64,000 nt of DNA from a virus (taxonomy: Duplodnaviria > Caudoviricetes). The stretch lies in the IMG/VR virus record IMGVR_UViG_3300025018_000001. One strand, 5' to 3'. The notes beneath the pieces were generated by a model. That model searched no databases. It saw only the letters and a list, made by a program, of their open reading frames with translations, and had not been told where the DNA came from. Below, piece by piece: positions 19 through 26,801 of this stretch; the stretch's first letter is position 1; each line of letters opens with the position of its first letter. The position numbers and the translations under genes were made by a program.

Positions 19-729
19 TCATTTATTTACCTCTATATAGTAACAATCTGGAAAATTATACATAGTGCACCTTCTTCTTATAGTAGCCCTTGAAACACCA
101 AAACATTTTGCAGCCTCTAAGGTAGATGTAAAATATAAGTCATGCACTATACATTTTGTACTATGTGATGGTGGTGCGCCCTTTATATCTTTATTCCAAG
201 GAATGTTACCTTTTTTAAAATCTACTAAGCCAAGTTTTAACCTATCTTTTAGAGTTAGCTTTTTGCCATATAAGTAATTTTTAATTCCGAGCTTTTTACC
301 TTTCTTAGCCTTACTAATGTTTATTTTTTCCTCTTTAGTACGTGGAATATTTTTATTCCATGAGGGTTTACCTTTGAGCTTGGCCTTTATCATATCCATA
401 ACTTCTTTAGGATGTTTTTTACCATACATGTGGTTATCTCTACCATAAAATGTTGGAGGGTTTCCACCACCTTCTGTAATATTATAACAATTAGTATCCT
501 CTAAAAGTTCATCAGTAATAAAGTTCTTTTCAAAAGCATAAGCACTGGCTTCATCATAAAACAAAGCTAGTGTTTCTCGTGTAAAATTATTACGTCCATA
601 CTTTTTTATAGCTTGAAGTATAAGTTTACCAGAACCTAAATACAAAGTAGATTTTTTACTATTCACTTTATGTACACCAATATAGTATTTGTTATTAATA
701 AGATTTGTTGTTTTATATACTAACCACAT
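19..729 (-). CDS. GIY-YIG homing endonuclease (Seg-like) with NUMOD3-type repeats and C-terminal HTH
   Basis: N-terminal 'VYKTTNLINNKYYIGVH...YLGSG' GIY-YIG core, 'HMYGKKH', 'PSWNK', 'PWNK' NUMOD3-like repeats, C-terminal 'FTSTLEAAKCFGVSRATIRRRC' HTH. ATG abuts the stop of the upstream gene. Confidence 0.9.
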   Translation of the reverse strand: MWLVYKTTNLINNKYYIGVHKVNSKKSTLYLGSGKLILQAIKKYGRNNFTRETLALFYDEASAYAFEKNFITDELLEDTNCYNITEGGGNPPTFYGRDNHMYGKKHPKEVMDMIKAKLKGKPSWNKNIPRTKEEKINISKAKKGKKLGIKNYLYGKKLTLKDRLKLGLVDFKKGNIPWNKDIKGAPPSHSTKCIVHDLYFTSTLEAAKCFGVSRATIRRRCTMYNFPDCYYIEVNK

Positions 730-8082: not shown

Positions 8083-8466
8083 CTAATTAGTTTTCTCTAT
8101 AAAATTAGCATAAAACTGGGCGCCAATCCACGAAGAACTTTTAGGCACAAAACTGACAACACATATTGGGTCATCTAATTCTGCTCCTTGTTGTTTAACA
8201 AAAATATAGTTTAAATGTATAAAAAAATCTAGGCTTTCGTCATAGAAATTTTTAATTTCCATTTTCATAACATTTTCTAAATATTCAAGACTGACCCCCG
8301 TGAACCTATAGTCCTTAAGTAAGCTTATAGTAGTCTGGTCAGTGAATCCACACAAGTGTGAGTGGTTGTATAAAAGAAGCTCACCACCAATGTCGTCTAT
8401 TATAACATCTTCAGAATATTTAGTCAACAAAACTTTTATATTATTTCCTATAGTAACCATATTCAT
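8083..8466 (-). CDS. Hypothetical protein
   Basis: Fills the gap after polA. Start moved to ATG at 8466, which follows AAGGAA. Confidence 0.6.
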   Translation of the reverse strand: MNMVTIGNNIKVLLTKYSEDVIIDDIGGELLLYNHSHLCGFTDQTTISLLKDYRFTGVSLEYLENVMKMEIKNFYDESLDFFIHLNYIFVKQQGAELDDPICVVSFVPKSSSWIGAQFYANFIEKTN

Positions 8467-8470
8467 TTCC

Positions 8471-10405
8471 TTAATCTTGTTTAGCAGTACATTTATCACA
8501 TACTAGTCTAGTACCATAATGGTCGTCCGCCTCAAATCTCATTATATTGTGTTCACATTTTTTACCACTTGCATCCTTTTCTTCACATTCATGCTTTATC
8601 CAACAAGGGCCTATTACTGGTGCAGTACGCATGGGCATAACAGGAAAATAATGATTAAAGGCGTCATCCACAGAACTTACAACTATCTTAGCCACCTCAT
8701 CTGCATGAGTTATAGGTGCCTCTACAACAATCTCATCATGTACCGACAATAACAAACGTGCACCAACATCTAATTGTTCTAAACGTTCAACACATAATAC
8801 CATTGCTAATTTAATAGTATCACTGTCGGAACCCTGAATCTTATGATTTTTAGCAGCACGTTCTACCCCACCTATTATCTTCTTCCTTGCTGGGTCACTC
8901 ATAGGTGGTATATTGTAAAAACGGTGTCTACCTGTAATAGTAGTACTACTATGTGTACGTACTGCGTCCTTTGCTGCTTTAGTAAGCCAAGTATTCAAAA
9001 CATTATTGATTCTAAAATATTTATCAATAAGCTTTTGAGCTGTATCCTTAGGTATACCTAAACGTTTACCCAAACCAACAGCAGAAATACCATAAGCAAG
9101 TCCAAATGAAATAGCTTTGGAGGCTTTACGTTGTTCAGGAGTAACCTTATCATATGGCACTTCATAAATTCTAGCAGCGTTTACTGTATGTAAATCTAAA
9201 CCTTTCTCATATGTGTCTAAAAAGTTAGGCTCTCCTGACATAGCACCCATAATAACTAATTCTGCAGAGTTCTGATCCACAGTTATTAAACACATTTTAT
9301 CGTCTGCTATAAAACAAGATCTAAACTTTTGCTTTCCTGGTATATTCTGTAAATTAGGGTTGTTAGAAGACATCCTTCCTGTCGATACCATCTGCTTAAA
9401 CTGTGTATGTAATCTTCCTGTTTTAGGGTGTATACGCTCAATTAAAGCTTCACCATAAGTATTTACTAACTTGGCATTTTGTCTGTAAGATAATAAATCA
9501 TCTACAACTTTATGACCAGAATATTTTTTTAACGCCTCGTTTGCAGTGGACTCAACCTTAATACCAAGTTTGTTTAAGGCTGCCTTAAGTTGAACAGGGC
9601 TTGCAATATTAACTGTTGGTACACCAAATAACGATAACTGGTCTTGTGTGACTTGTAAGCTATCCTCAATATTCTTTTTGAACCCTTCAAGCTCACTAGC
9701 AAATTCATCCATCATAAGACGCCACTTTGTTACATCTAATTTTACACCATTTAATTCCATCTCACACAGTGGTTTTATAAAAGCCATTTCTAGTGCTAGT
9801 ACCTCTTGCAAATTGTACTTCTCTATTCTTTGCATTTGCATACTACGTATTATATCTAATACACAAACATCATTTGCGGCATATGCAACCTGTTTGTCAG
9901 TAAATTCTTGGTCATAAACTTCAAAAGTCCCACGAGGTTCTTTATTCATAACCATTCCTAAGTACTTTTCTACTAATTTAGCTAAACTAAAACCAGATAC
10001 TTGCACACCTAGATACATAAGAATTTCTGCTAGCATTGTATCATAAACATTTTCAATATAAAAACCATACTGAGACTTTAAAACTTTCATGTCATAGCTA
10101 GCATTTTGAAGTATCTTTAATTGCTTTTTACTTGTTAAAATTTTCTTAAATAAACTACCATGAATAGTAATCCCAGGTAAGTCACTTCTTACATCAAATA
10201 CGTAAGCCATATTAGGCACACCTATTTGCAATAGGGTAGTCTTACATCTAAAGGGGTCTAAAGATGTGCCCTCGGTATCTACCTCCAATATTGGCTGGGT
10301 ATATAAAAAATCGAGTACCTCTCTAGCTCTAGCTTCATCTTTTATATATTCATAGTTTGGTGTAGGTAGTTCAGGTAACTCAACAAATGCTTCTAAATTA
10401 TTCAT
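8471..10405 (-). CDS. polA: Family A DNA polymerase with 3'-5' exonuclease (no 5'-3' exonuclease)
   Basis: Exo 'VDTEG', 'NASYDM', 'YAAND'; polymerase 'TGRMSSNNPNLQNIP', motif A 'VDQNSAEL', motif B 'KAISFGLAYG', motif C 'SVHDE'. Confidence 0.95.
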   Translation of the reverse strand: MNNLEAFVELPELPTPNYEYIKDEARAREVLDFLYTQPILEVDTEGTSLDPFRCKTTLLQIGVPNMAYVFDVRSDLPGITIHGSLFKKILTSKKQLKILQNASYDMKVLKSQYGFYIENVYDTMLAEILMYLGVQVSGFSLAKLVEKYLGMVMNKEPRGTFEVYDQEFTDKQVAYAANDVCVLDIIRSMQMQRIEKYNLQEVLALEMAFIKPLCEMELNGVKLDVTKWRLMMDEFASELEGFKKNIEDSLQVTQDQLSLFGVPTVNIASPVQLKAALNKLGIKVESTANEALKKYSGHKVVDDLLSYRQNAKLVNTYGEALIERIHPKTGRLHTQFKQMVSTGRMSSNNPNLQNIPGKQKFRSCFIADDKMCLITVDQNSAELVIMGAMSGEPNFLDTYEKGLDLHTVNAARIYEVPYDKVTPEQRKASKAISFGLAYGISAVGLGKRLGIPKDTAQKLIDKYFRINNVLNTWLTKAAKDAVRTHSSTTITGRHRFYNIPPMSDPARKKIIGGVERAAKNHKIQGSDSDTIKLAMVLCVERLEQLDVGARLLLSVHDEIVVEAPITHADEVAKIVVSSVDDAFNHYFPVMPMRTAPVIGPCWIKHECEEKDASGKKCEHNIMRFEADDHYGTRLVCDKCTAKQD

Positions 10406-10406
10406 T

Positions 10407-11471
10407 CTAACTCCCTAATAAAGTTACTACTTTAAACATTATATTATAAAACATGTGTTCTGCAGGTTTACCTGTAAGATAGATTGGTGTTGTTAATTGT
10501 GATAAAGCGTTTGAAATATTCTTACCACTAGTTAAGTTGCTTCGTTTTAGACAGCCCACAAAAAAGCCGCATACAGCAATACGTATACTCTCTACGGGGT
10601 ATTTCTTGGCTAACTTCTCAAACAATACACAGGATTCTTTAAAATCTCGTTTAATTAATGTCTTACATAGATGTATAGTTTCTGCATCATCTTCATCTAA
10701 GATAATACCTGTTAGTAACTCTTTAACATTAGTTAAATTCCAAGAACCTTCTGTTATTACAGAGTCTAAACAATTAAGCGCTTTTCTAGGTACACCAAAA
10801 GATAAGTCACAAATATACTTTAATACATCAATGTCATAGTTTACCCCTTCAAATTGAGCTACGTTTTCTAACATTTGCATTATCTCTTCAGGAGATAAAG
10901 GTTTCAGATGCAATATCTTACACCTATCTAGAAACGGATCGTCATCCGTATTTTTACTTGTTAGTTTCTCTGGCTCATTAGTACAAAATATAATATACAC
11001 ATGTGAGTAACAATCTTCCATACGCTTTAGTAATAAAGCTTGTGCTGCTGGAGATAATCTATGCGCTTCATCAAATATTAGAACTTTATGTTTAGAGCTA
11101 AATGGTGAAGAGGATAAATTCTCAACTAACCCATCTACGGCGTCTTTACCGTTGTTACTACCTACATTTATTTCATTAACATCCATACTATTTGAATTTA
11201 AAATAGCGGTACAAGAAGAACAAGTAAGACATGGTACTGTATCTTTAGAATTTTCACAATTTAAACTCAGTGCTAAAATCCTAGCTAAAGTAGTCTTACC
11301 TAAACCAGCATCACCTGTTAGTAATAAAATATGAGGTAGTGTACCTTTTATAAGATAATTACTGACCAATGTTTTAACAGAAGGACTTCCTAAAAATTCT
11401 TCTACTGTACAAGGCCTGTACACAGTTAAAAAACCATTTGCGCCTGTCCTTGTTTCTCTTCTTATTAACAT
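10407..11471 (-). CDS. dnaX: DNA polymerase III gamma/tau-like clamp loader ATPase
   Basis: 'YRPCTVEEFLG', Walker A 'GDAGLGKTT', Zn 'CEN...PCLTCSSC', 'DEAHRLS..AQALLLK..E', 'DRC' arginine finger, 'GVPRKAL'. Confidence 0.9.
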   Translation of the reverse strand: MLIRRETRTGANGFLTVYRPCTVEEFLGSPSVKTLVSNYLIKGTLPHILLLTGDAGLGKTTLARILALSLNCENSKDTVPCLTCSSCTAILNSNSMDVNEINVGSNNGKDAVDGLVENLSSSPFSSKHKVLIFDEAHRLSPAAQALLLKRMEDCYSHVYIIFCTNEPEKLTSKNTDDDPFLDRCKILHLKPLSPEEIMQMLENVAQFEGVNYDIDVLKYICDLSFGVPRKALNCLDSVITEGSWNLTNVKELLTGIILDEDDAETIHLCKTLIKRDFKESCVLFEKLAKKYPVESIRIAVCGFFVGCLKRSNLTSGKNISNALSQLTTPIYLTGKPAEHMFYNIMFKVVTLLGS

Positions 11472-18557: not shown

Positions 18558-19074
18558 TTTTTCCCTCCATATAAAGATAGCCATAATCTCTAGCATATCT
18601 ATATTTATATTTATTTAAAACTGTATCAGCATAACAAAATAGTTGTGCTTGTGCATCAATCATATCATTATCTTTTTTAAATGTCAAGTTTTCTATATCT
18701 AATAAATAGCATACGAAATTAAATAGGTCTTCTTTATTAGGTGATGCAAAGTAAGACTTGACAGTAGTATTTGTAATTATGTAAGGTTCAATACCTAGTG
18801 TTTTTATACAGGTGAGTTTGGCTACCCCAGCAAACTCACTAAGTATTTTTAGAGTTCCTACATTAATACCAGAAAAAGTATCCTCCTGGACTATAAAGTC
18901 AGGGGCTAAGTCTATAAGTAACTGCTCTAATAAATTACTAAATAGTAATAATCTTTCAGACCTAGTAGATTTAGGGCTAGTACAAATAACACCCTTTTTA
19001 AAAGTCATACCATCTGAAGTAAAACACCAACCTGTAGAGGAGGCAGAAACATCTATACTTAAAATTTTACACAT
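18541..19074 (-). CDS. ruvC: RuvC-like Holliday junction resolvase
   Basis: '[13 protein letters not shown]', 'IVQED', 'VKSYF...KE', 'NDMIDA'. Confidence 0.82.
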
Positions 19075-19831
19075 TGCTAACTTCTTTAAGTACTTTCAAT
19101 TGTTCCGGGGTAACTTTGTCAATTGATGGAAGTACTAAGTGCAATTGTACAAATACATTACCATTAGGTCCTCCATTTTTACCAATACCTCCCTTACCCA
19201 TGAACCTCAACACTGACCCATGTGTGGCGCCATTAGGTATAGCTACATCAATCTCTTTCTCTACAATTACCCTCCCAGAGTCACAAGAGGTGCACTTTGT
19301 TTTAACAGTAAAGCCTCGGCCTGAGCAATGTTTGCAAGGTACTTGTGTCATCATACGCACATTAAACTGCATAACGATTTGTTCTGTACTGCCCATACCA
19401 TTACATACATTACATGTGGTACGTTCTGACGCGCCTGTGCCCGCACATTTTTGACAAGGGTCTGCCAGAGTAAACTTAATATTTTTAGTAGCCCCTGATA
19501 GTATATCATATATAGATACAGGTACTTTTATATTTACATCTTGTCCAGGCGTTGGGAAGTTTTGCCTATTATGCTGACCACCCATACCAAAATGGTTTTT
19601 AAAAAAATCATTAATATCAAAGTCACTAAAACCAGACCTAGGATTATCATGTTGGTTTCTTTTCTGGGGGTCAGATAAAATCTGGTAAGCGTCATTTATT
19701 TCTTTAAATTTAGTATCATCACCATTATTCTTATCTGGGTGATGTAGTAAAGCTAACTTTCTGAACGCTTTCTTTATTTCTTCATCTGTAGCATTAGGGG
19801 TGACACCTAAAACTTTATAGTAGTCTTTCAT
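19067..19831 (-). CDS. dnaJ: DnaJ-type chaperone (J domain plus zinc finger, shortened C-terminus)
   Basis: 'DYYKVLGV', HPD motif, four CxxCxGxG-type repeats, '[14 protein letters not shown]'. Start set at MKDYY after GAGG. Confidence 0.92.
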
Positions 19832-19832
19832 T

Positions 19833-20195
19833 TTAATCCTCAAGCATAGTTACAACTTTACCGTCAATAGCTACAAAGTCATCTACAATTTTAAAACTTA
19901 TTGGGCAAAATAGTTGATTATCCGCTAGAGCTGGATATTTTTTAACGCCAAAAAGAACTTTAGTAATAGTAGATACATAGAATATGTTATCACTAAAAAT
20001 AGTAAAGTCTCCATCTTCTTCAGTAAAGAATGTAGGGTCTAAATCATAATAACTACCTTTACAAGGTAATTTAAAAGAGTACATTTCTTCACTAATATGG
20101 ATCTTAAAATTATTAGCTGGTAACATGGCTAAGGTAGGCATTGCGTATATAGCATCAGTTTCCTGTAAACCCATCCCATTTTCATTTTCGTTCAT
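19833..20195 (-). CDS. Hypothetical protein
   Basis: Open frame with GGAG RBS in operon. Confidence 0.6.
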
Positions 20196-20210: not shown

Positions 20211-20522
20211 TTAGTATAAAACAATAAAATTATCAACAACTACATTTGTCCAGTATGCTTTTGAAGGTCCTTGGCAGTATTTACATTTAGTGTCATAAGA
20301 TGTCTCTTCTATATGCCCAAATAATTTTATATACGTACCATTAGGTAATTCTGCCAACGCTTCAGCAATTTTACCCCATGCCCCTATTTTAACATATTGA
20401 AATTTATCATCAATAGGTAAAGCCAGTTTACATTTGTAATTTGTTATATCACTATATATGCTGACTTCTCTGTAAGAGATTTTACCTACTAATTTTACAA
20501 TATTCTCACCTGATATATTCAT
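20211..20522 (-). CDS. ssb: Single-stranded DNA-binding protein (OB fold)
   Basis: 'VKLVGKI', 'VKIGAWGKIAEAL..L.NG..I.L.GHI', 'WTNVVVDNF' SSB pattern; next to primase. Confidence 0.75.
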   Translation of the reverse strand: MNISGENIVKLVGKISYREVSIYSDITNYKCKLALPIDDKFQYVKIGAWGKIAEALAELPNGTYIKLFGHIEETSYDTKCKYCQGPSKAYWTNVVVDNFIVLY

Positions 20523-21558
20523 CTAGATACCTATAAATTTCGTCTGTTGTCAATTCTGCTGGCCCATCTGTCTCTTTTTTAACAGAAGGAGTGATGTCAA
20601 TGTCTACTACAGGTATGCCCTCTTTTGTAAGAGCTTCAACCCCTAACTTTGCACCACCTCTACCAGCTTTATCAGCATCATACATTATAATAACTCCTTT
20701 AAGTGCATAAATTTTCAACAACTGCACTTGTCCTGGGCTAAGAAAAGAACCCATAGTACAAACTACGTTGTAAATACCATAGTCGTACATGCGCCAAACG
20801 GACTTAAAACCTTCTACAACTATTATAGGTGTTATATTACCATATAGTTTAGCATTTTGCAAGTTATAAAGAACTAGATCTTTAACAAAACCAGTAGTTA
20901 TTATATATTTAAAAGAATCGTCTGGTGGGTTCATCCTTGTATCTTTTAATGAGTAGGCTTTTAATGCACCATCAACATCTCTGATTGGTATTATATCCCT
21001 AAGAATACCAAACTCATCTGTTAAGCCACCAGCAACTTCAAAATAATCTAAGGTAGTATTGCTAAAATTATCTTGTCTAATCATAACCTGCGAACGTAAT
21101 GGCCTGTAAGATATTAAATGATCTTCAGATACATATGCGGGCTGCTGTGAAGTTGCATAACTTTTAATAAACGCATCTCTATCTTTAGAAAATAATCTAT
21201 CAACTTTAAAATTATTAGATAAAACACTATCACCTACAAGATCTTGAAGATATTTTACTGCTTCTTTAAAATCAATTTTAAGTACCCCTTTTATAAGACC
21301 TATTATGTCATAACCATAGGTTTCCTGACATTTAGAGGTAAAACAAAGCCATGTCCTGGTTTGTTTATTTAACCTAAAAGCACTCCTATTATCGCCACCA
21401 TGCACTGCACAAGATGCTCTAATTTGTTTAGCATTTTCATTTGTTATTTTAAAGCCTAGAGAATGTAATAAAAGATGTAGGTCTACACTTTCTTTTAGTA
21501 GTTGTATATCTGTATTATCATAAGAGCGTGTTGTGTTCTGCAAAGCTATCACCTCCAT
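20506..21558 (-). CDS. dnaG: DNA primase (CHC2 zinc finger plus TOPRIM)
   Basis: 'CAVHGGDN.SAF...WLCF..C...DII', 'VVEGFKSV', 'MYDADKAG'. Confidence 0.88.
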   Translation of the reverse strand: MEVIALQNTTRSYDNTDIQLLKESVDLHLLLHSLGFKITNENAKQIRASCAVHGGDNRSAFRLNKQTRTWLCFTSKCQETYGYDIIGLIKGVLKIDFKEAVKYLQDLVGDSVLSNNFKVDRLFSKDRDAFIKSYATSQQPAYVSEDHLISYRPLRSQVMIRQDNFSNTTLDYFEVAGGLTDEFGILRDIIPIRDVDGALKAYSLKDTRMNPPDDSFKYIITTGFVKDLVLYNLQNAKLYGNITPIIVVEGFKSVWRMYDYGIYNVVCTMGSFLSPGQVQLLKIYALKGVIIMYDADKAGRGGAKLGVEALTKEGIPVVDIDITPSVKKETDGPAELTTDEIYRYLDEYIR

Positions 21559-22987
21559 TTTGATTACTACCTAAATCTAATTTTAAATCACTTAAATAGT
21601 CAAATGTTTCTACTTGATTTTCTTGACTTACTTCAACGATTCTAAGCTTAGTCTTTTTAAATTTAAAGCCTATGCCCCACTCACCAGTAGTACCACCACG
21701 ACGCGTATCACGAATACATAGTCCGTAATGCCCAGCTATATCTAAATCTACTGCTTCTTCTTCAGCTTTTTTCAAATCCCTAAGGCCCCAAAAAGCTACG
21801 ATATCTCCATATCTAGCTACTCTATCAGAGTCAGCTACATCCCCTGTTCTATTTACTTGTACTGCTGCTAAGAACGGAATATCTAACTGGCCGGATAAAT
21901 CCTTTAAGCGTGTTGTTACATCACCTAAAATTTGGTATTCTTTCCTACCTGCTTCCACACTGGAAGATTCTGGCTCTTTTATGTAGTCAAAAACAGCTAA
22001 CTTAATATCTTCTTTGAACTTATATTTTTTGTAGAGTGCTGTTATCTTTTCTAAATTATATCCAGGTAAGTAATGATGAAACAACTTACTTTTCTTTAGA
22101 TATTTAGCTGCTTCTTGTATACGTCTAAATACTTCTTTATCATTTCTAAAGCCACCATGTTTGATAGTTCTCTCCTGTACACCACTAATGATTGCTAGTA
22201 CCCGGTCACGCCATTCTTTAAAGGTCATTTCTGTGTCCACGTATAGTGTGGGTAGTCCATCATTAACCGCTACATGAGTAGCTATATTAGTAAGCACAGT
22301 AGACTTACCCATTTTCTTCCTTGCTGCTACAATCATTAATGTTCCAGGAATTAAACCATCAATAACCTTATCGAGTATAGGGAAGCCTGTTGAAATACCA
22401 ATAACAGGTATATGATCATCCATAATACTTTCTATGTATTCATCTAAACCATCTGATATGTGCTTAGGTTCTGCTATAGCTTCACTATGAATAGATAAAG
22501 ATATTAAGTCAGCCTGTACGCCATTAATCAAGTCATCACTAGATACAGAAGCTAACGAAGACGCATTTGCTAAAACGCTATCTGTGTGTAAATTTAACTT
22601 ACTGAATAACTTATATTTTGTACTATCATCTATCAATTTTGTAATTAAATTTGGTAAGTCTTTATCCGGTACTGGTACATTTAATATAGCGTCAATAAAT
22701 GCCTCGCTACAGGTATCTTCAAAATTTAAATCTATTGAAGTTTTAGTTAGTAAAAGTTTACTACATTTCGAGTACCCTGCTTTATTCAATAAACATAAAA
22801 TAGAGAAGAACGCTCTAGACTCAGGTGCAAGGAAATCAGTCTCTTCCACTCTAGCTAGTACATTAAAAAAGTTATCTTCACTATGAGACATAGCAGAAAG
22901 AATACCTCGTTCATTATAAGCATCACAAAAAGTATGCGCAGATTTATCAATACTCTTACTTATAGTGCTTTCTTTGGTATAATTCAT
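21518..22987 (-). CDS. dnaB: DnaB-like replicative helicase
   Basis: 'GISTGF..LD..IDGL', Walker A 'ARKKMGKST', 'DTEM', 'FDYI', 'AAVQVNR'. Confidence 0.92.
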   Translation of the reverse strand: MNYTKESTISKSIDKSAHTFCDAYNERGILSAMSHSEDNFFNVLARVEETDFLAPESRAFFSILCLLNKAGYSKCSKLLLTKTSIDLNFEDTCSEAFIDAILNVPVPDKDLPNLITKLIDDSTKYKLFSKLNLHTDSVLANASSLASVSSDDLINGVQADLISLSIHSEAIAEPKHISDGLDEYIESIMDDHIPVIGISTGFPILDKVIDGLIPGTLMIVAARKKMGKSTVLTNIATHVAVNDGLPTLYVDTEMTFKEWRDRVLAIISGVQERTIKHGGFRNDKEVFRRIQEAAKYLKKSKLFHHYLPGYNLEKITALYKKYKFKEDIKLAVFDYIKEPESSSVEAGRKEYQILGDVTTRLKDLSGQLDIPFLAAVQVNRTGDVADSDRVARYGDIVAFWGLRDLKKAEEEAVDLDIAGHYGLCIRDTRRGGTTGEWGIGFKFKKTKLRIVEVSQENQVETFDYLSDLKLDLGSNQNGGDSFAEHNTLL

Positions 22988-23411: not shown

Positions 23412-23663
23412 TTATGATACCTCATTGTCGTCTTTTTTATTTTCTTCTGTAACGTAAAAGCCAGTACAAAAATAATCGAAGTCGTACTGCTTGGTTTCAT
23501 AGTTAAAAAAATGATACCAGTCTGTCTTCATACCTATCTGTCTACAATACTGACTTAAGTCGCAGTACTTAATGTCACCTGTTGCAGTTCCATCTTTTAA
23601 AGGACACCAGTCTGCACAGTCCTTTCCATGTCTCTTTGGATTTACATTTATAAGATTAAACAT
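23412..23663 (-). CDS. Small Cys-rich hypothetical protein
   Basis: 'CADWCP...YCDLSQYC...YFC'. Confidence 0.55.
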   Translation of the reverse strand: MFNLINVNPKRHGKDCADWCPLKDGTATGDIKYCDLSQYCRQIGMKTDWYHFFNYETKQYDFDYFCTGFYVTEENKKDDNEVS

Positions 23664-24000
23664 TCATCGCCTCATATATTCTGTTTAGTACAAGTTCATT
23701 GTCTATGCTGTCTATTGTATCAAATAACAACACTAAAGTCAAGTCATTTTCTTCACAATACTCAACTTTTAGACTATCTCTCCTCTTTTGGGCATAAAAA
23801 TTAGAGACGTCACCATGAAAGTGTTTAACAAACTCAGTATGTTGACGTCCCTGACATTCAAATAATAGCCCTAACTCCTTAATATAGAAATCAAAAAATA
23901 ACTGAGTATTTTTAAATCTAACATAATACTCTTTCTCAATATAAGTAAATTGAAATTCTTCTTTTAATATATTATATACATCATCAGCTATTTTACTCAT
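23656..24000 (-). CDS. DUF559/Vsr-like endonuclease
   Basis: 'FFDFYI...FECQGRQH...RRD..K..YC..N.L.L' pattern. Confidence 0.75.
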   Translation of the reverse strand: MSKIADDVYNILKEEFQFTYIEKEYYVRFKNTQLFFDFYIKELGLLFECQGRQHTEFVKHFHGDVSNFYAQKRRDSLKVEYCEENDLTLVLLFDTIDSIDNELVLNRIYEAMNV

Positions 24001-25103: not shown

Positions 25104-25668
25104 GTACTCTCCTTAAATTTTCAAAATTAAACCCTGTGTATTCATTATCCTTTAACTCATCCGCTTCTACCATTTTTTCCATTCTGTATGCATTAAGTAT
25201 TTCTACATTACTATTTAACATACTTATAACTTTATCAGTTATCCATTTACATTTATCACTACCAAAAACCCAAGTACCTATAGGTAAGGTTAGGTCTAAT
25301 TCAGATTCATACACAAATAGGGCGTTAATAATATTAGCACAGTCCTGTATACCATCCTCAAAGGAACACTTAAGCTCTAGCTGTCTATTACTTATAAACC
25401 TTGTAAATAAAGTTCTATCTTTTTGCCTATTAGCTACTAGTGCACAAACATCATTGTGATAGTAGTCCATTAAATTATAAAAGAAATTAACCAACTCGTC
25501 AAGATTTTTTATTTGTCTAGGCCTTGCCTTATTTGCTACTTTGTATCCCAACGATTTTAAAAAGTTTACACATGCCACTTCAACTTCTTTCTCAGGTAGT
25601 TTATCATTTAAAAAACTTGGTGCATCTAACTGTTTTACTTTAGAGATTAAAATATCTAAATTTTTCAT
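25093..25668 (-). CDS. Hypothetical protein
   Basis: Open frame coupled between dnaN and recA. Confidence 0.6.
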   Translation of the reverse strand: MKNLDILISKVKQLDAPSFLNDKLPEKEVEVACVNFLKSLGYKVANKARPRQIKNLDELVNFFYNLMDYYHNDVCALVANRQKDRTLFTRFISNRQLELKCSFEDGIQDCANIINALFVYESELDLTLPIGTWVFGSDKCKWITDKVISMLNSNVEILNAYRMEKMVEADELKDNEYTGFNFENLRRVHGD

Positions 25669-26801
25669 TAATGTCGCCTAACAGGAGTTATTAAAGCCTT
25701 CTGATTACTAAACTGTGCTGAGTCAAATATTACAGCACTTGTATCATTAGAAAACTGCATAATGACTAAATCATCCATTATAGCTGTTAGAGTCTGTAAT
25801 AGATAGGTACCGTTAAGATCAACTATAAAATCACCTGTAAACTTAATGTCTTCGCTATATTCTGCATCAGCAAAATCATTCTTTAATGATAACTTATTAT
25901 TAACTAAAGTTATGGTTAGTCTACTATGATCTTCTTGATCAAGTGACGGAAGTACTGGTGCTAAACTACTTAATAGTATATTCTTATTTAGTGTAATTGT
26001 ATGAGTAAAATTCTCAAAAGCTTTTGTATAGTCTGGGTACTCCTCACCTAGTATTAATTGACCATGTAGTACAGTATTACTAAATTTAGCTTTTATTTTA
26101 CCGTTGTCTATACAAAAGAATACGGTACTATCTGTGTCTAATACACGTTTTAATGCGTTAACAAAACTATAGGTAAGTGTAAAACTACCCTCAAAAAACT
26201 TACTAGTGTTAGGTGTTTTATACTCAGATAGTTTTTGTGCGTCAGTACCTGCAAAATATACATAGTCTTTATCGAAATTTATATTTATACCTTGTAAAAA
26301 ATTACGTATTGATGAGGGATTAACAGCATACATAACTTTAGACAAAGCTAAACGTAGAGTAGCTGCATTAATTTCAAATAAACTTTGTGTAAAAGGTGAT
26401 GGTATTGCAATTTTTTGTGGTGGATATAAACGTAATTTTAATTTATGAGCTGTTTTTTTATTGTTAGCCGCAAGGCTATCAATTGTAACAGATAGGTCAT
26501 TCTTAAGTGCTTTGAATTTAACTATCTTAGCTCCCACACCCTCGGATAGATAGGGGAATGCAAAAAGAAAAGAACTAAGTTTGCCATATAATATAGCATT
26601 AACGCCTACCGTTTTTACGTCACATTTAGGCACTACATGCGTTAGAGATACTAATTTATTACTACAAAGTAGCACTAATTCTCCGGTATCTCTAATGTCC
26701 ATAAACAATTGTCCGTCTGTGTCCTCAGAAGTAGCTTTAGCTACAGCACTAAATAATTTCATGGCTTTCTGAAGAGACAGTAAATCTACACTAAATTCCA
26801 T
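25668..26801 (-). CDS. dnaN: DNA polymerase III beta sliding clamp
   Basis: 377 aa three-domain length; 'LRLALSKVMYA...R.FLQGI', 'GTDAQKLS', 'GEEYPDY', 'DLNGTYLLQ.L', C-terminal 'LITPVR'. Confidence 0.9.
   Translation of the reverse strand: MEFSVDLLSLQKAMKLFSAVAKATSEDTDGQLFMDIRDTGELVLLCSNKLVSLTHVVPKCDVKTVGVNAILYGKLSSFLFAFPYLSEGVGAKIVKFKALKNDLSVTIDSLAANNKKTAHKLKLRLYPPQKIAIPSPFTQSLFEINAATLRLALSKVMYAVNPSSIRNFLQGININFDKDYVYFAGTDAQKLSEYKTPNTSKFFEGSFTLTYSFVNALKRVLDTDSTVFFCIDNGKIKAKFSNTVLHGQLILGEEYPDYTKAFENFTHTITLNKNILLSSLAPVLPSLDQEDHSRLTITLVNNKLSLKNDFADAEYSEDIKFTGDFIVDLNGTYLLQTLTAIMDDLVIMQFSNDTSAVIFDSAQFSNQKALITPVRRH

What the first reader, a model, noticed from the sequence alone, without database searches (positions are those of the whole stretch)
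9626..9640. Family-A polymerase carries a perfect beta-clamp-binding motif (QLSLF) in the thumb: a PolA-clamp-loader replisome
Seen: residues 256-260 of PolA read QLSLF (...IEDSLQVTQDQLSLFGVPTVNIASPVQL...). By-eye alignment to E. coli Pol I (...HEIAGEEFNLSSTKQL...) makes this a short insertion at the thumb H-H1 junction. The same arm encodes a beta clamp, a DnaX-type loader, DnaB, primase and SSB, and no DnaE is in the window. Known: QL[S/D]LF is the consensus beta-clamp-binding peptide of bacterial replicases, and the H-H1 junction is where T7 gp5 carries its thioredoxin-binding processivity domain. Inference: this phage replicates with a family-A polymerase tethered to a ring clamp through the thumb, a hybrid of the T7 and Pol III strategies that I do not know to be characterised.
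Basis: partly seen in the sequence, partly recalled or inferred. Interest (0 to 1): 0.85.

Follow-up and report, generated by a model that had tools for sequence, protein, structure and literature searches.

The report
Clamp-docking peptide on phage polymerase thumb
A jumbo phage's family-A DNA polymerase carries a conserved sliding-clamp docking peptide (QLSLF) at the tip of its thumb. The phage also encodes its own clamp and clamp loader, so this is probably how such polymerases become processive; nothing has been tested at the bench.

Summary
PolA (8471-10405, minus strand, 644 aa) reads QLSLF at residues 256-260, which is nt 9626-9640.

- **Position.** In a confident AlphaFold2 model the motif opens the loop between thumb helices H and H1. 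That is the site where T7 polymerase carries its thioredoxin-binding domain.
- **Conservation.** In 59 family members (48-85% identical) the loop reads Q(56/59)-x-[T/S]-L(58/59)-F(59/59)-G, inside otherwise variable sequence.
- **Gene context.** dnaX lies directly upstream of polA in 10 of 10 related viral records. dnaN was found in 9 of these 10. Neither was found in 29 records with other PolA types. No DnaE or PolB was found in the window or in the relatives' partial records.
- **Clamp.** The phage clamp keeps the canonical peptide pocket.
- **Predicted complex.** Clamp dimer plus PolA thumb scored ipSAE 0.61 against 0.00 for the best control. Q256 sits in subsite 2 and L259/F260 in subsite 1. 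This pass may reflect likeness to solved clamp-peptide structures.

The reading is supported computationally, not biochemically. PolA plus beta plus gamma in large phages was already noted in 2011; I found no report of the thumb-tip tether in the papers searched.

The motif is wider than the finding. It marks a large viral PolA clade, including crAss001 (QGDLF), and most of its members have no detected clamp of their own.

Other first readers of this scan noted the same motif in other genomes; none had been followed up.

The parts
8471..10405 (-). polA: family-A DNA polymerase with a 3'-5' proofreading domain and no 5' nuclease domain (644 aa)
   Evidence: Pfam PF01612 and PF00476. AF2 model pLDDT 95.3. 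Foldseek TM 0.80/0.85 to Klenow fragment 1kfs. Exo residues D43, E45, D105, Y175, D179 and pol residues D377, R426, K430, Y438, H556, D557, E558 are invariant or nearly so.
9626..9640 (-). QLSLF, residues 256-260: candidate beta-clamp-binding motif
   Evidence: sequence. (Q 56/59, L 58/59, F 59/59 in the family). (predicted contacts with the clamp pocket).
9599..9646 (-). Thumb-tip loop, residues 254-269, between helix H (225-253) and helix H1 (270-279). It carries about 11 residues more than Pol I.
   Evidence: DSSP of the AF2 model, with block pLDDT 85-87. Alignment with Salmonella Pol I and PolAs lacking the motif.
10407..11471 (-). dnaX-like clamp-loader ATPase (354 aa, gamma length), ending 2 nt before the polA start codon
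   Evidence: PF13177, E 8.1e-27. Walker A, a 4-Cys module and a DRC motif are visible in the sequence. The same gene sits directly upstream of polA in 10 of 10 related records.
25668..26801 (-). dnaN-like beta sliding clamp (377 aa) with a conserved peptide pocket
   Evidence: PF02767, PF00712 and PF02768. PDB beta clamps. T186, L191, P256, Y258, N330 and P373 are invariant even against bacterial clamps. The predicted interface uses these residues.
21518..22987 (-). DnaB-type replicative helicase
   Evidence: PF03796, E 2.1e-31
20506..21558 (-). DnaG-type primase (Zn ribbon plus Toprim)
   Evidence: PF13662 and PF01807

Best explanation
QLSLF is a functional beta-clamp-binding motif displayed on the loop at the tip of the PolA thumb. 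The phage's DnaX-type loader, possibly with partners not yet identified, puts the phage's own beta-type ring on primed DNA. The ring encircles the duplex leaving the polymerase. The thumb-tip loop inserts L259/F260 into the hydrophobic subsite 1 of one clamp protomer and Q256 into subsite 2, next to the clamp's C-terminal strand. This tethers the polymerase and makes it processive.

Functionally the loop occupies the same structural site as the thioredoxin-binding domain of T7 gp5, but it recruits a ring clamp in the way Pol III alpha, Pol II, Pol IV and Pol V do.

Shown from sequence and models: the motif, its position, its conservation, the clamp pocket, the gene linkage and a predicted canonical docking mode. 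Inferred: actual binding, clamp loading and a gain in processivity.
For: 1. The motif is an exact match to the QL[S/D]LF consensus (consensus as cited in PMC3716654). It is very unlikely by chance, at 0.0008 expected per PolA.

2. The AF2 model (pLDDT 95.3) places it in the coil 254-269 between helices 225-253 and 270-279, which is the H-H1 junction. PMC10201439 states that the T7 TBD precedes helix H1.

3. Column pattern in 59 family members at 48-85% identity: Q 56/59, position 2 variable, T/S at position 3, L 58/59, F 59/59, G 50/59. The flanking loop columns are variable.

4. In 103 more distant PolAs (30-41% identity), strict Q..[LM]F is at this site in 31. The expectation is 0.002 per loop.

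5. Gene linkage. dnaX is directly upstream of polA in 10 of 10 IMG/VR records of this PolA type, down to 31% PolA identity. dnaN is in 9 of 10; the exception is a 54%-complete record with polA near a contig end. Both are absent from 29 records with other PolA types.

6. The clamp keeps T186, L191, P256, Y258, N330 and P373 invariant, even against bacterial clamps.

7. Predicted complex of the clamp dimer with PolA 222-322. ipSAE was 0.61, and the best of 3 controls was 0.00. In the tool's calibration this mark was reached by 58 of 80 solved complexes and 2 of 110 mismatched pairs. The three runs share at least 92% of contacts, and partner pLDDT is at least 79. PolA 254-262 contacts clamp residues 165-169, 186-191, 256-261, 330, 354-356 and 372-375. 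By the offset of the E. coli beta alignment, these correspond to R152/L155, T172-L177, P242-V247, N320, V344/S346 and M362-R365.

8. No PF07733 (DnaE) or PF00136 (PolB) was found in the window or in six relatives' records.
Against: - No experiment exists.
- The complex prediction used only the thumb fragment, without DNA. It may pass because clamp-peptide complexes are abundant among solved structures.
- The loop is modelled with pLDDT of about 85 in the monomer, so it is not an obviously disordered tail like many clamp-binding motifs. I could not obtain coordinates to check whether L259/F260 are exposed.
- Position 2 is Thr in most family members, not the consensus Leu.
- The same motif occurs in many PolAs from phages with no detectable clamp or loader. 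Co-occurrence is therefore not exclusive, and on the tree it amounts to roughly one evolutionary event.
- Two other phages known to combine PolA with beta and gamma show no clear motif at this site. Ma-LMM01 reads DQVVDW, and RSL1 could not be aligned there.
- Only one loader subunit gene is recognisable. No delta or delta' was found.
Confidence: 0.7

Rival explanations
1. The Q-x-x-L-F-G loop is a lineage-specific structural or DNA-contacting element of the thumb tip. It would cap helix H or touch the minor groove. Its likeness to a clamp motif would then be coincidental, and the phage clamp would serve other clients.
For: - The loop is modelled with fairly high confidence in the monomer (pLDDT about 85).
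- 'LF[G/D]' persists in some relatives that have lost the Gln.
- The motif occurs in many phages with no clamp or loader of their own.
- Known thumb tips contact DNA (general knowledge of Klenow, Bst and T7 complexes).
Against: - A structural cap does not explain the near-invariant Gln three residues before LF, or the small polar or acidic residue at position 3. Together these reproduce the clamp consensus.
- The whole loop is dispensable. It is absent from Pol I and from the T7-like PolAs, and inside the clade it has been deleted or replaced by an unrelated insert of about 50 aa.
- The predicted complex docks it canonically: 0.61 against 0.00 for the best control.
Confidence: 0.15
2. The motif is a genuine clamp-binding motif, but its physiological partner is the host's beta clamp, as it would have to be in relatives without a clamp gene. 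The phage-encoded clamp would have a different main role, for example coupling replication to late transcription as T4 gp45 does, or as phage Mu does with the host clamp.
For: - The motif predates the acquisition of dnaN and dnaX on the PolA tree. It is found in crAss001, cr111_1 and in 65-92 kb phages with no clamp or loader detected.
- Clamp-dependent phage transcription is documented (PMC2988020, PMC12867686).
Against: - polA and dnaX are an adjacent, conserved gene pair, always found with dnaN in the sufficiently complete records.
- The phage clamp's own pocket is conserved and is predicted to accept the motif.
- The two uses are not mutually exclusive.
Confidence: 0.1
3. QLSLF is a chance occurrence with no function.
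For: Short linear motifs do arise by chance. Only one copy is present in the window.
Against: The expectation is 0.0008 per PolA. The motif is conserved at the same site in hundreds of homologues down to about 25-30% identity.
Confidence: 0.01

Closest known systems
Bacterial beta-clamp clients with a QL[S/D]LF / QxxLF motif (Pol III alpha internal motif, Pol II, Pol IV, UmuC internal QLNLF)
   Same: The pentapeptide matches the consensus. In the model the Gln goes to subsite 2 and Leu-Phe to subsite 1. As in UmuC, and (from memory) the internal motif of Pol III alpha, the motif is internal rather than C-terminal (PMC3716654 for UmuC).
   Different: The carrier is a family-A polymerase and the motif sits on the thumb-tip loop. 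The clamp is phage-encoded and only about 25-28% identical to the nearest bacterial clamps.
Actinobacterial PolA2 (APEX) with QxxLF (PMC12926913, 2026)
   Same: It is a family-A polymerase with a conserved QxxLF, supported by structure prediction of a complex with the beta clamp.
   Different: [quoted passage not shown] Here it lies at the thumb tip of a proofreading-competent viral replicase. [quoted passage not shown]
T7 gp5 thioredoxin-binding domain
   Same: Both are an insertion at the same H-H1 junction of the thumb that recruits a processivity factor lying over the exiting duplex (PMC10201439).
   Different: This is an 11-residue loop with a linear motif, not a TBD of 50 or more residues. 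The partner is a ring clamp that needs a loader, not host thioredoxin. There is no sequence relationship.
Phages Ma-LMM01 and RSL1: PolA plus polIII-beta plus polIII-gamma (Kazlauskas and Venclovas 2011, PMC3201878)
   Same: They are large phages (over 150 kb) that combine a family-A polymerase with a beta-type clamp and a single gamma-type loader subunit. The authors proposed that the clamp serves PolA.
   Different: No tether was identified there. At the equivalent site I found no clear QxxLF in those two PolAs. Their clamps are too divergent for PF02767.
T4/RB69 gp43-gp45-gp44/62 replicase
   Same: It is a phage-encoded polymerase, ring clamp and loader, with the tether emerging from the thumb region of the polymerase (general knowledge; PMC3012046).
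   Different: That system uses a family-B polymerase, a trimeric PCNA-like clamp and a C-terminal tail motif.

Membership tests
Beta-clamp-binding motif (CBM) client | Peptide matching QL[S/D]LF or QxxLF | tested here: met
   QLSLF at residues 256-260. Consensus as cited in PMC3716654.
Beta-clamp-binding motif (CBM) client | Motif conserved among orthologues while its surroundings vary | tested here: met
   Q 56/59, L 58/59 and F 59/59, with flanking loop columns at entropy 1.8-3.3 bits. 31 of 103 distant homologues carry it, against 0.002 expected per loop.
Beta-clamp-binding motif (CBM) client | Motif on an exposed, accessible segment | tested here: inconclusive
   It lies in a coil at the thumb tip in the AF2 model, with pLDDT about 85. 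No coordinates were available to measure the exposure of L259/F260.
Beta-clamp-binding motif (CBM) client | A cognate clamp with an intact two-subsite pocket is available | tested here: met
   The phage DnaN keeps T186, L191, P256, Y258, N330 and P373.
Beta-clamp-binding motif (CBM) client | Physical binding to the clamp, and dependence of function on the motif | not testable with these tools
   Only a prediction is available: ipSAE 0.61 against 0.00 for the best control. That mark was reached by 58 of 80 solved complexes and 2 of 110 mismatched pairs. The runs agree on at least 92% of contacts and partner pLDDT is at least 79. The pass may reflect likeness to solved clamp-peptide complexes.
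Family A DNA polymerase (Klenow-like, proofreading) | Pol A palm, fingers and thumb with catalytic Asp/Glu, plus a DEDD 3'-5' exonuclease domain | tested here: met
   PF00476 (E 1.4e-85) and PF01612 (E 6.5e-26). Invariant D377, D557, E558, D43, E45 and D179. TM 0.80/0.85 to 1kfs.
Canonical bacterial Pol I | [quoted passage not shown] | tested here: not met
   The protein starts with the 3'-5' exonuclease domain at residue 18. No 5' nuclease domain was found.
T7-like PolA with a thioredoxin-binding domain | TBD insertion of 50 or more residues at the thumb tip | tested here: not met
   The loop is 16 residues, about 11 more than Pol I.
Bacterial Pol III holoenzyme | C-family catalytic subunit (DnaE or PolC) | tested here: not met
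   No PF07733 in the window's ORFs or in six related records. The window's own complete genome was not available.
Bacterial Pol III holoenzyme | Complete DnaX complex with delta and delta' subunits | tested here: inconclusive
   Only one DnaX-like gene is recognised. No HolA/HolB-like ORF was found by Pfam or PHROGs in the window. Divergent subunits could have been missed.
Beta sliding clamp (DnaN) | Three-domain protein of about 370 aa matching the N, central and C-terminal beta domains | tested here: met
   377 aa. PF00712 and PF02767 pass or nearly pass their cut-offs; PF02768 is weak. PDB beta clamps align over residues 102-375.

The most novel reading that the evidence does not exclude
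The thumb-tip QxxLF loop is the ancestral processivity tether of a very large clade of viral family-A polymerases. Most members, including Crassvirales such as the cultured Bacteroides phage crAss001 (QGDLF), encode no clamp and would hijack the host beta clamp. Jumbo phages such as this one later took a clamp and a loader into their own genomes. This would be a third general solution for PolA processivity, beside T7's thioredoxin and the built-in domains of T5 and SPO1.
Probability: 0.45. Interest if true: 0.8.

Novelty: new variant of a known kind. Interest (0 to 1): 0.68.

Why it matters
Family-A polymerases are the commonest phage replicases, but how most of them become processive is unknown outside T7. 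That large phages pair PolA with a beta-type clamp and a gamma-type loader has been known since 2011, with the make-up of the working replicase left open (PMC3201878).

A conserved clamp-docking peptide at the thumb tip gives that question a concrete, mutable handle. It predicts a minimal three-protein replicase (PolA, beta, DnaX) that can be rebuilt in vitro.

If the motif also works in clamp-less relatives, it points to host-clamp dependence in Crassvirales and many mid-size phages. That matters for host range, for phage-host conflict over the clamp, and for engineering processive PolA enzymes.

Tried and rejected
- **Own genome.** No whole genome is held for the window, so a dnaE elsewhere could only be checked in relatives.
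- **The search for related loci with the broad alignment A1.** It failed for lack of a conserved stretch. The single protein found only one IMG/VR relative. The family alignment A3 worked.
- **tblastn of the phage DnaN against cultured-phage genomes.** No match.
- **PF02767 on RSL1 and Ma-LMM01.** It does not detect their known remote clamps. The 'no clamp' calls for other PolA classes therefore rest mainly on the absence of the easily detected DnaX ATPase.
- **Ma-LMM01 and RSL1 as independent PolA-plus-clamp lineages.** No clear motif at the site. This neither supports nor refutes the reading.
- **The look-up of encoding contigs for distant homologues.** The contigs were only 4-7 kb, too short for a co-occurrence test. 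One of them, P0197, showed a cellular gene context.
- **HMMER alignment of the loop to Taq.** It is unreliable in this region. I used MAFFT with a tool-supplied Salmonella Pol I instead. MAFFT pairs F260 with the Pol I 'F' of FNLSS. I rejected that pairing because V265-N266-I267-A268-S269 is the better equivalent of FNLSS.
- **Exposure of L259/F260.** No model coordinates were available, so it could not be computed.
- **SSB.** The ORFs with no Pfam match or only a weak one gave no SSB hit in PHROGs. The 103-aa ORF 20211-20522 looks OB-like by eye only.
- **Literature.** Seven searches found no description of a thumb-tip clamp motif in phage PolA. The library is incomplete, so this is not proof of novelty.
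Full report
**1. The observation**

The minus-strand ORF 8471-10405 encodes a 644-aa protein. It has a DEDD 3'-5' exonuclease domain (PF01612, residues 18-184) and a family-A polymerase domain (PF00476, 238-602), and no 5' nuclease domain.

From the amino-acid composition of the window's ORFs, QL[SD]LF is expected 0.0008 times per PolA and 0.025 times in the whole window proteome. It occurs once.

**2. The surroundings**

The same transcription arm holds these genes:
- a gamma-length DnaX-type AAA+ loader (10407-11471), ending 2 nt before the polA start
- a 377-aa beta-clamp homologue (25668-26801)
- RecA
- a DnaB helicase
- a DnaG-type primase
- RuvC and a PD-(D/E)XK nuclease
- ThyA, DHFR, dUTPase and a ribonucleotide reductase

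No other polymerase domain is present in any large ORF.

No complete genome is held for the window. Earlier notes place at least 175 kb upstream of the window, and an identical DnaN sits on a 264-kb contig, so this is a jumbo phage. The closest cellular clamps are from Solitalea (Bacteroidota), at about 28% identity.

**3. Where the motif sits**

An AlphaFold2 model built on 117 homologues is very confident (mean pLDDT 95.3, pTM 0.93). It superposes on the Klenow fragment with TM 0.80/0.85.

Helix 225-253 is the long thumb helix H. Residues 254-269 are coil, with block pLDDT 85-87. Helices 270-279, 289-293 and 299-317 follow. QLSLF therefore opens the H-H1 loop at the thumb tip.

PMC10201439 states that the T7 thioredoxin-binding domain precedes helix H1, which is the same junction. 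Against a tool-supplied Salmonella Pol I and about 50 PolAs of other types, the loop carries about 11 extra residues.

**4. Conservation**

All 120 closest proteins in the 5.8-billion-protein collection (48-100% identity, on contigs up to 313 kb) carry LF or MF at this site. Nearly all also have the Gln.

In a 59-sequence family alignment the columns read Q 56/59, position 2 variable (T 23, L 6, M 6, N 6), T/S at position 3, L 58/59, F 59/59 and G 50/59. The neighbouring loop columns have 1.8-3.3 bits of entropy.

Among 103 more distant representatives (30-41% identity), strict Q..[LM]F is at this site in 31. The background rate predicts 0.002 per loop.

**5. Co-occurrence with clamp and loader**

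I took 81 PolA loci from IMG/VR and classified their loops. I then searched the full records of the 39 with contigs of about 29 kb or longer.

| PolA loop type | Records searched | DnaX (PF13177) | DnaN (PF02767) |
|---|---|---|---|
| Short Q-x-x-L-F-G loop (PolA identity down to 31%) | 10 | 10 of 10, always directly upstream of polA | 9 of 10 |
| Longer insert with Q[G/L/A/I]D[L/M]F (65-92 kb genomes, two judged complete) | 8 | 0 | 0 |
| No motif (four judged complete, up to 210 kb) | 21 | 0 | 0 |

The one short-loop record without DnaN is 54% complete, with polA near the contig end.

PF02767 misses the remote clamps of RSL1 and Ma-LMM01. The negatives therefore rest mainly on the absent loader.

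No DnaE or PolB domain was found in six relatives' records, including the 228-kb record whose PolA is 86% identical.

**6. The clamp and the predicted complex**

The phage clamp aligns end to end with bacterial beta clamps. T186, L191, P256, Y258, N330 and P373 stay invariant across phage and Solitalea sequences.

A complex prediction of the clamp dimer with PolA 222-322, using my own alignments, gave ipSAE 0.61. The best of 3 controls gave 0.00. In the tool's calibration that mark was reached by 58 of 80 solved complexes and 2 of 110 mismatched pairs. The three runs share at least 92% of contacts, and partner pLDDT is at least 79.

In the model:
- PolA 254-262 lies in the groove formed by clamp residues 165-169, 186-191, 256-261, 330, 354-356 and 372-375.
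- Q256 touches 330 and 372-375.
- L259/F260 touch 186-191, 256-261 and 356.

Using the offsets of the E. coli beta alignment, these are the classical pocket residues: R152/L155, T172-L177, P242-V247, N320, V344/S346 and M362-R365. The numbering is from my knowledge of the E. coli literature; PMC3716654 mentions Arg-152, Gly-174 and Pro-363. That paper describes the same division of labour, with Leu-Phe in subsite 1 and Gln in subsite 2 against the clamp's C-terminal backbone.

The pass may owe something to the many solved clamp-peptide complexes. It shows that this loop and this clamp are compatible with the canonical mode, not that they bind.

**7. Beyond the finding**

A FastTree of 83 PolAs puts every motif-bearing sequence in one clade with 100% local support: 42 QxxLF, 10 LF-like and 7 without. 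Outside that clade no row carries QxxLF. This covers Pol I, the T7-like 'GF-NPDS' group, Bacillus phage KLEB27-1 and Listeria phage LP-013.

Inside the clade, the sequences without a motif have either deleted the loop or replaced it with an unrelated basic insert of about 50 aa. The clamp- and loader-encoding jumbo phages are a subclade.

The clade also holds Crassvirales. cr111_1 reads QGNLF. The cultured Bacteroides phage crAss001 reads QGDLF, and that is the only Q..[LMIF][FLWY] match in its PolA. Neither genome matched the clamp profile, which is a weak negative. One distant homologue with QLSLF lies between an MFS transporter gene and moeA, a cellular context.

Two readings follow. Either the motif is older than the phage-encoded clamp and works with host clamps in smaller phages, or it is a structural hallmark of the clade. 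I favour the first, for three reasons:
- The conserved Gln and the polar or acidic third position reproduce the clamp consensus.
- The loop is dispensable for the fold.
- The predicted docking is canonical.

**8. What is known**

Kazlauskas and Venclovas (2011, PMC3201878) already reported PolA plus polIII-beta plus polIII-gamma in Ma-LMM01 and RSL1. They proposed that the clamp serves PolA and left the composition of the replicase open.

The same group's 2026 survey (PMC12926913) describes a QxxLF in the exonuclease-domain loop of actinobacterial PolA2 as, to their knowledge, the first clamp motif identified in a bacterial A-family polymerase. It reports none for the phage-related PolA3 group.

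The 2023 reclassification of PolAs (PMC10201439) lists thumb-tip insertions (T7, phiKMV, POPs) but no clamp motif.

Seven full-text searches found no description of a thumb-tip clamp motif in phage PolA. The library is incomplete.

Other first readers of this scan flagged the same motif in other genomes, as QTTLF, QKTLL and similar. None had been followed up.

**9. Verdict**

I put the probability that QLSLF is a working tether to the phage clamp at about 0.7.

It is a new variant of a known kind: a canonical clamp-binding motif, in a new carrier family and at a new structural site. That site is the one T7 uses for thioredoxin.

Weak points:
- There is no experiment.
- The docking model used only a thumb fragment.
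- The exposure of the Leu-Phe pair in the free enzyme is unknown.
- Position 2 is non-consensus in most relatives.
- The co-occurrence signal is phylogenetically a single event.
- The loader is incomplete by bacterial standards.

Noticed in passing
window 8474-8605 (-), PolA residues 601-644: PolA ends in a 40-residue tail that lies beyond the end of the Pfam and PDB polymerase matches (residue 602-604). It has conserved cysteines: C617, C636 and C639 are invariant in the family, and C601 and C607 at 90% or more. It is modelled as two beta hairpins (621-627 and 631-636). It looks like a zinc-ribbon-like C-terminal module of unknown role.
   Followed up: partly
L097 (Bacteroides phage crAss001, MH675552, about 71.1-73.3 kb); L091/L096 (cr111_1): Crassvirales PolAs carry QGDLF or QGNLF at the same thumb-tip site, inside a longer insert. 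No clamp or loader was detected in these genomes. This suggests possible use of the host beta clamp and could be tested in a cultured system.
   Followed up: partly
proteins P0006, P0008, P0015, P0017, P0018 and others; L009: Many close PolA homologues are about 1070 aa because of inteins with LAGLIDADG homing endonucleases (PF14528, PF14890). Some representatives reach 1200-1500 aa, which may mean more than one insertion. The window's copy has no intein.
   Followed up: no
L088 (JGI contig, 3981 nt): A 585-aa PolA of this clade with QLSLFE at the thumb tip lies between an MFS transporter gene and moeA. It therefore appears to be in a cellular chromosome rather than a phage.
   Followed up: partly
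window 10405-10407 and 8471-8499: The dnaX stop codon ends 2 nt before the polA start codon. The polA 3' end overlaps the next ORF (8083-8499, 138 aa, no family match) by 29 nt. This is a tightly packed dnaX-polA-ORF138 unit.
   Followed up: no
window 23656-24000 (-) and 19-729 (-): An HNH homing-endonuclease-like ORF (PHROG 559, E 3.5e-16) sits between recA and dnaB. A weak GIY-YIG (SegE-like) ORF lies at the window's start. These are mobile nucleases inside the replication arm.
   Followed up: no
window 19067-19843 (-): A full DnaJ homologue (J domain, Cys-rich domain, C-terminal domain) lies between the RuvC gene and the primase gene, two small unannotated ORFs upstream of the latter. It has QLKVL ten residues from its C-terminus, a loose clamp-motif-like string that is probably chance.
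   Followed up: no
window 20211-20522 (-): A 103-aa ORF just upstream of the primase gene looks OB-fold-like by eye and could be the missing SSB. It has no Pfam or PHROG match.
   Followed up: partly
P0158, P0171, P0198 and about 25 other representatives: A subclade of the motif-bearing PolA clade has replaced the QxxLF loop with a conserved insert of about 50 aa containing a basic 'P[VI]KTK[KR]' core. This may be an alternative processivity or partner-binding module at the same site.
   Followed up: no
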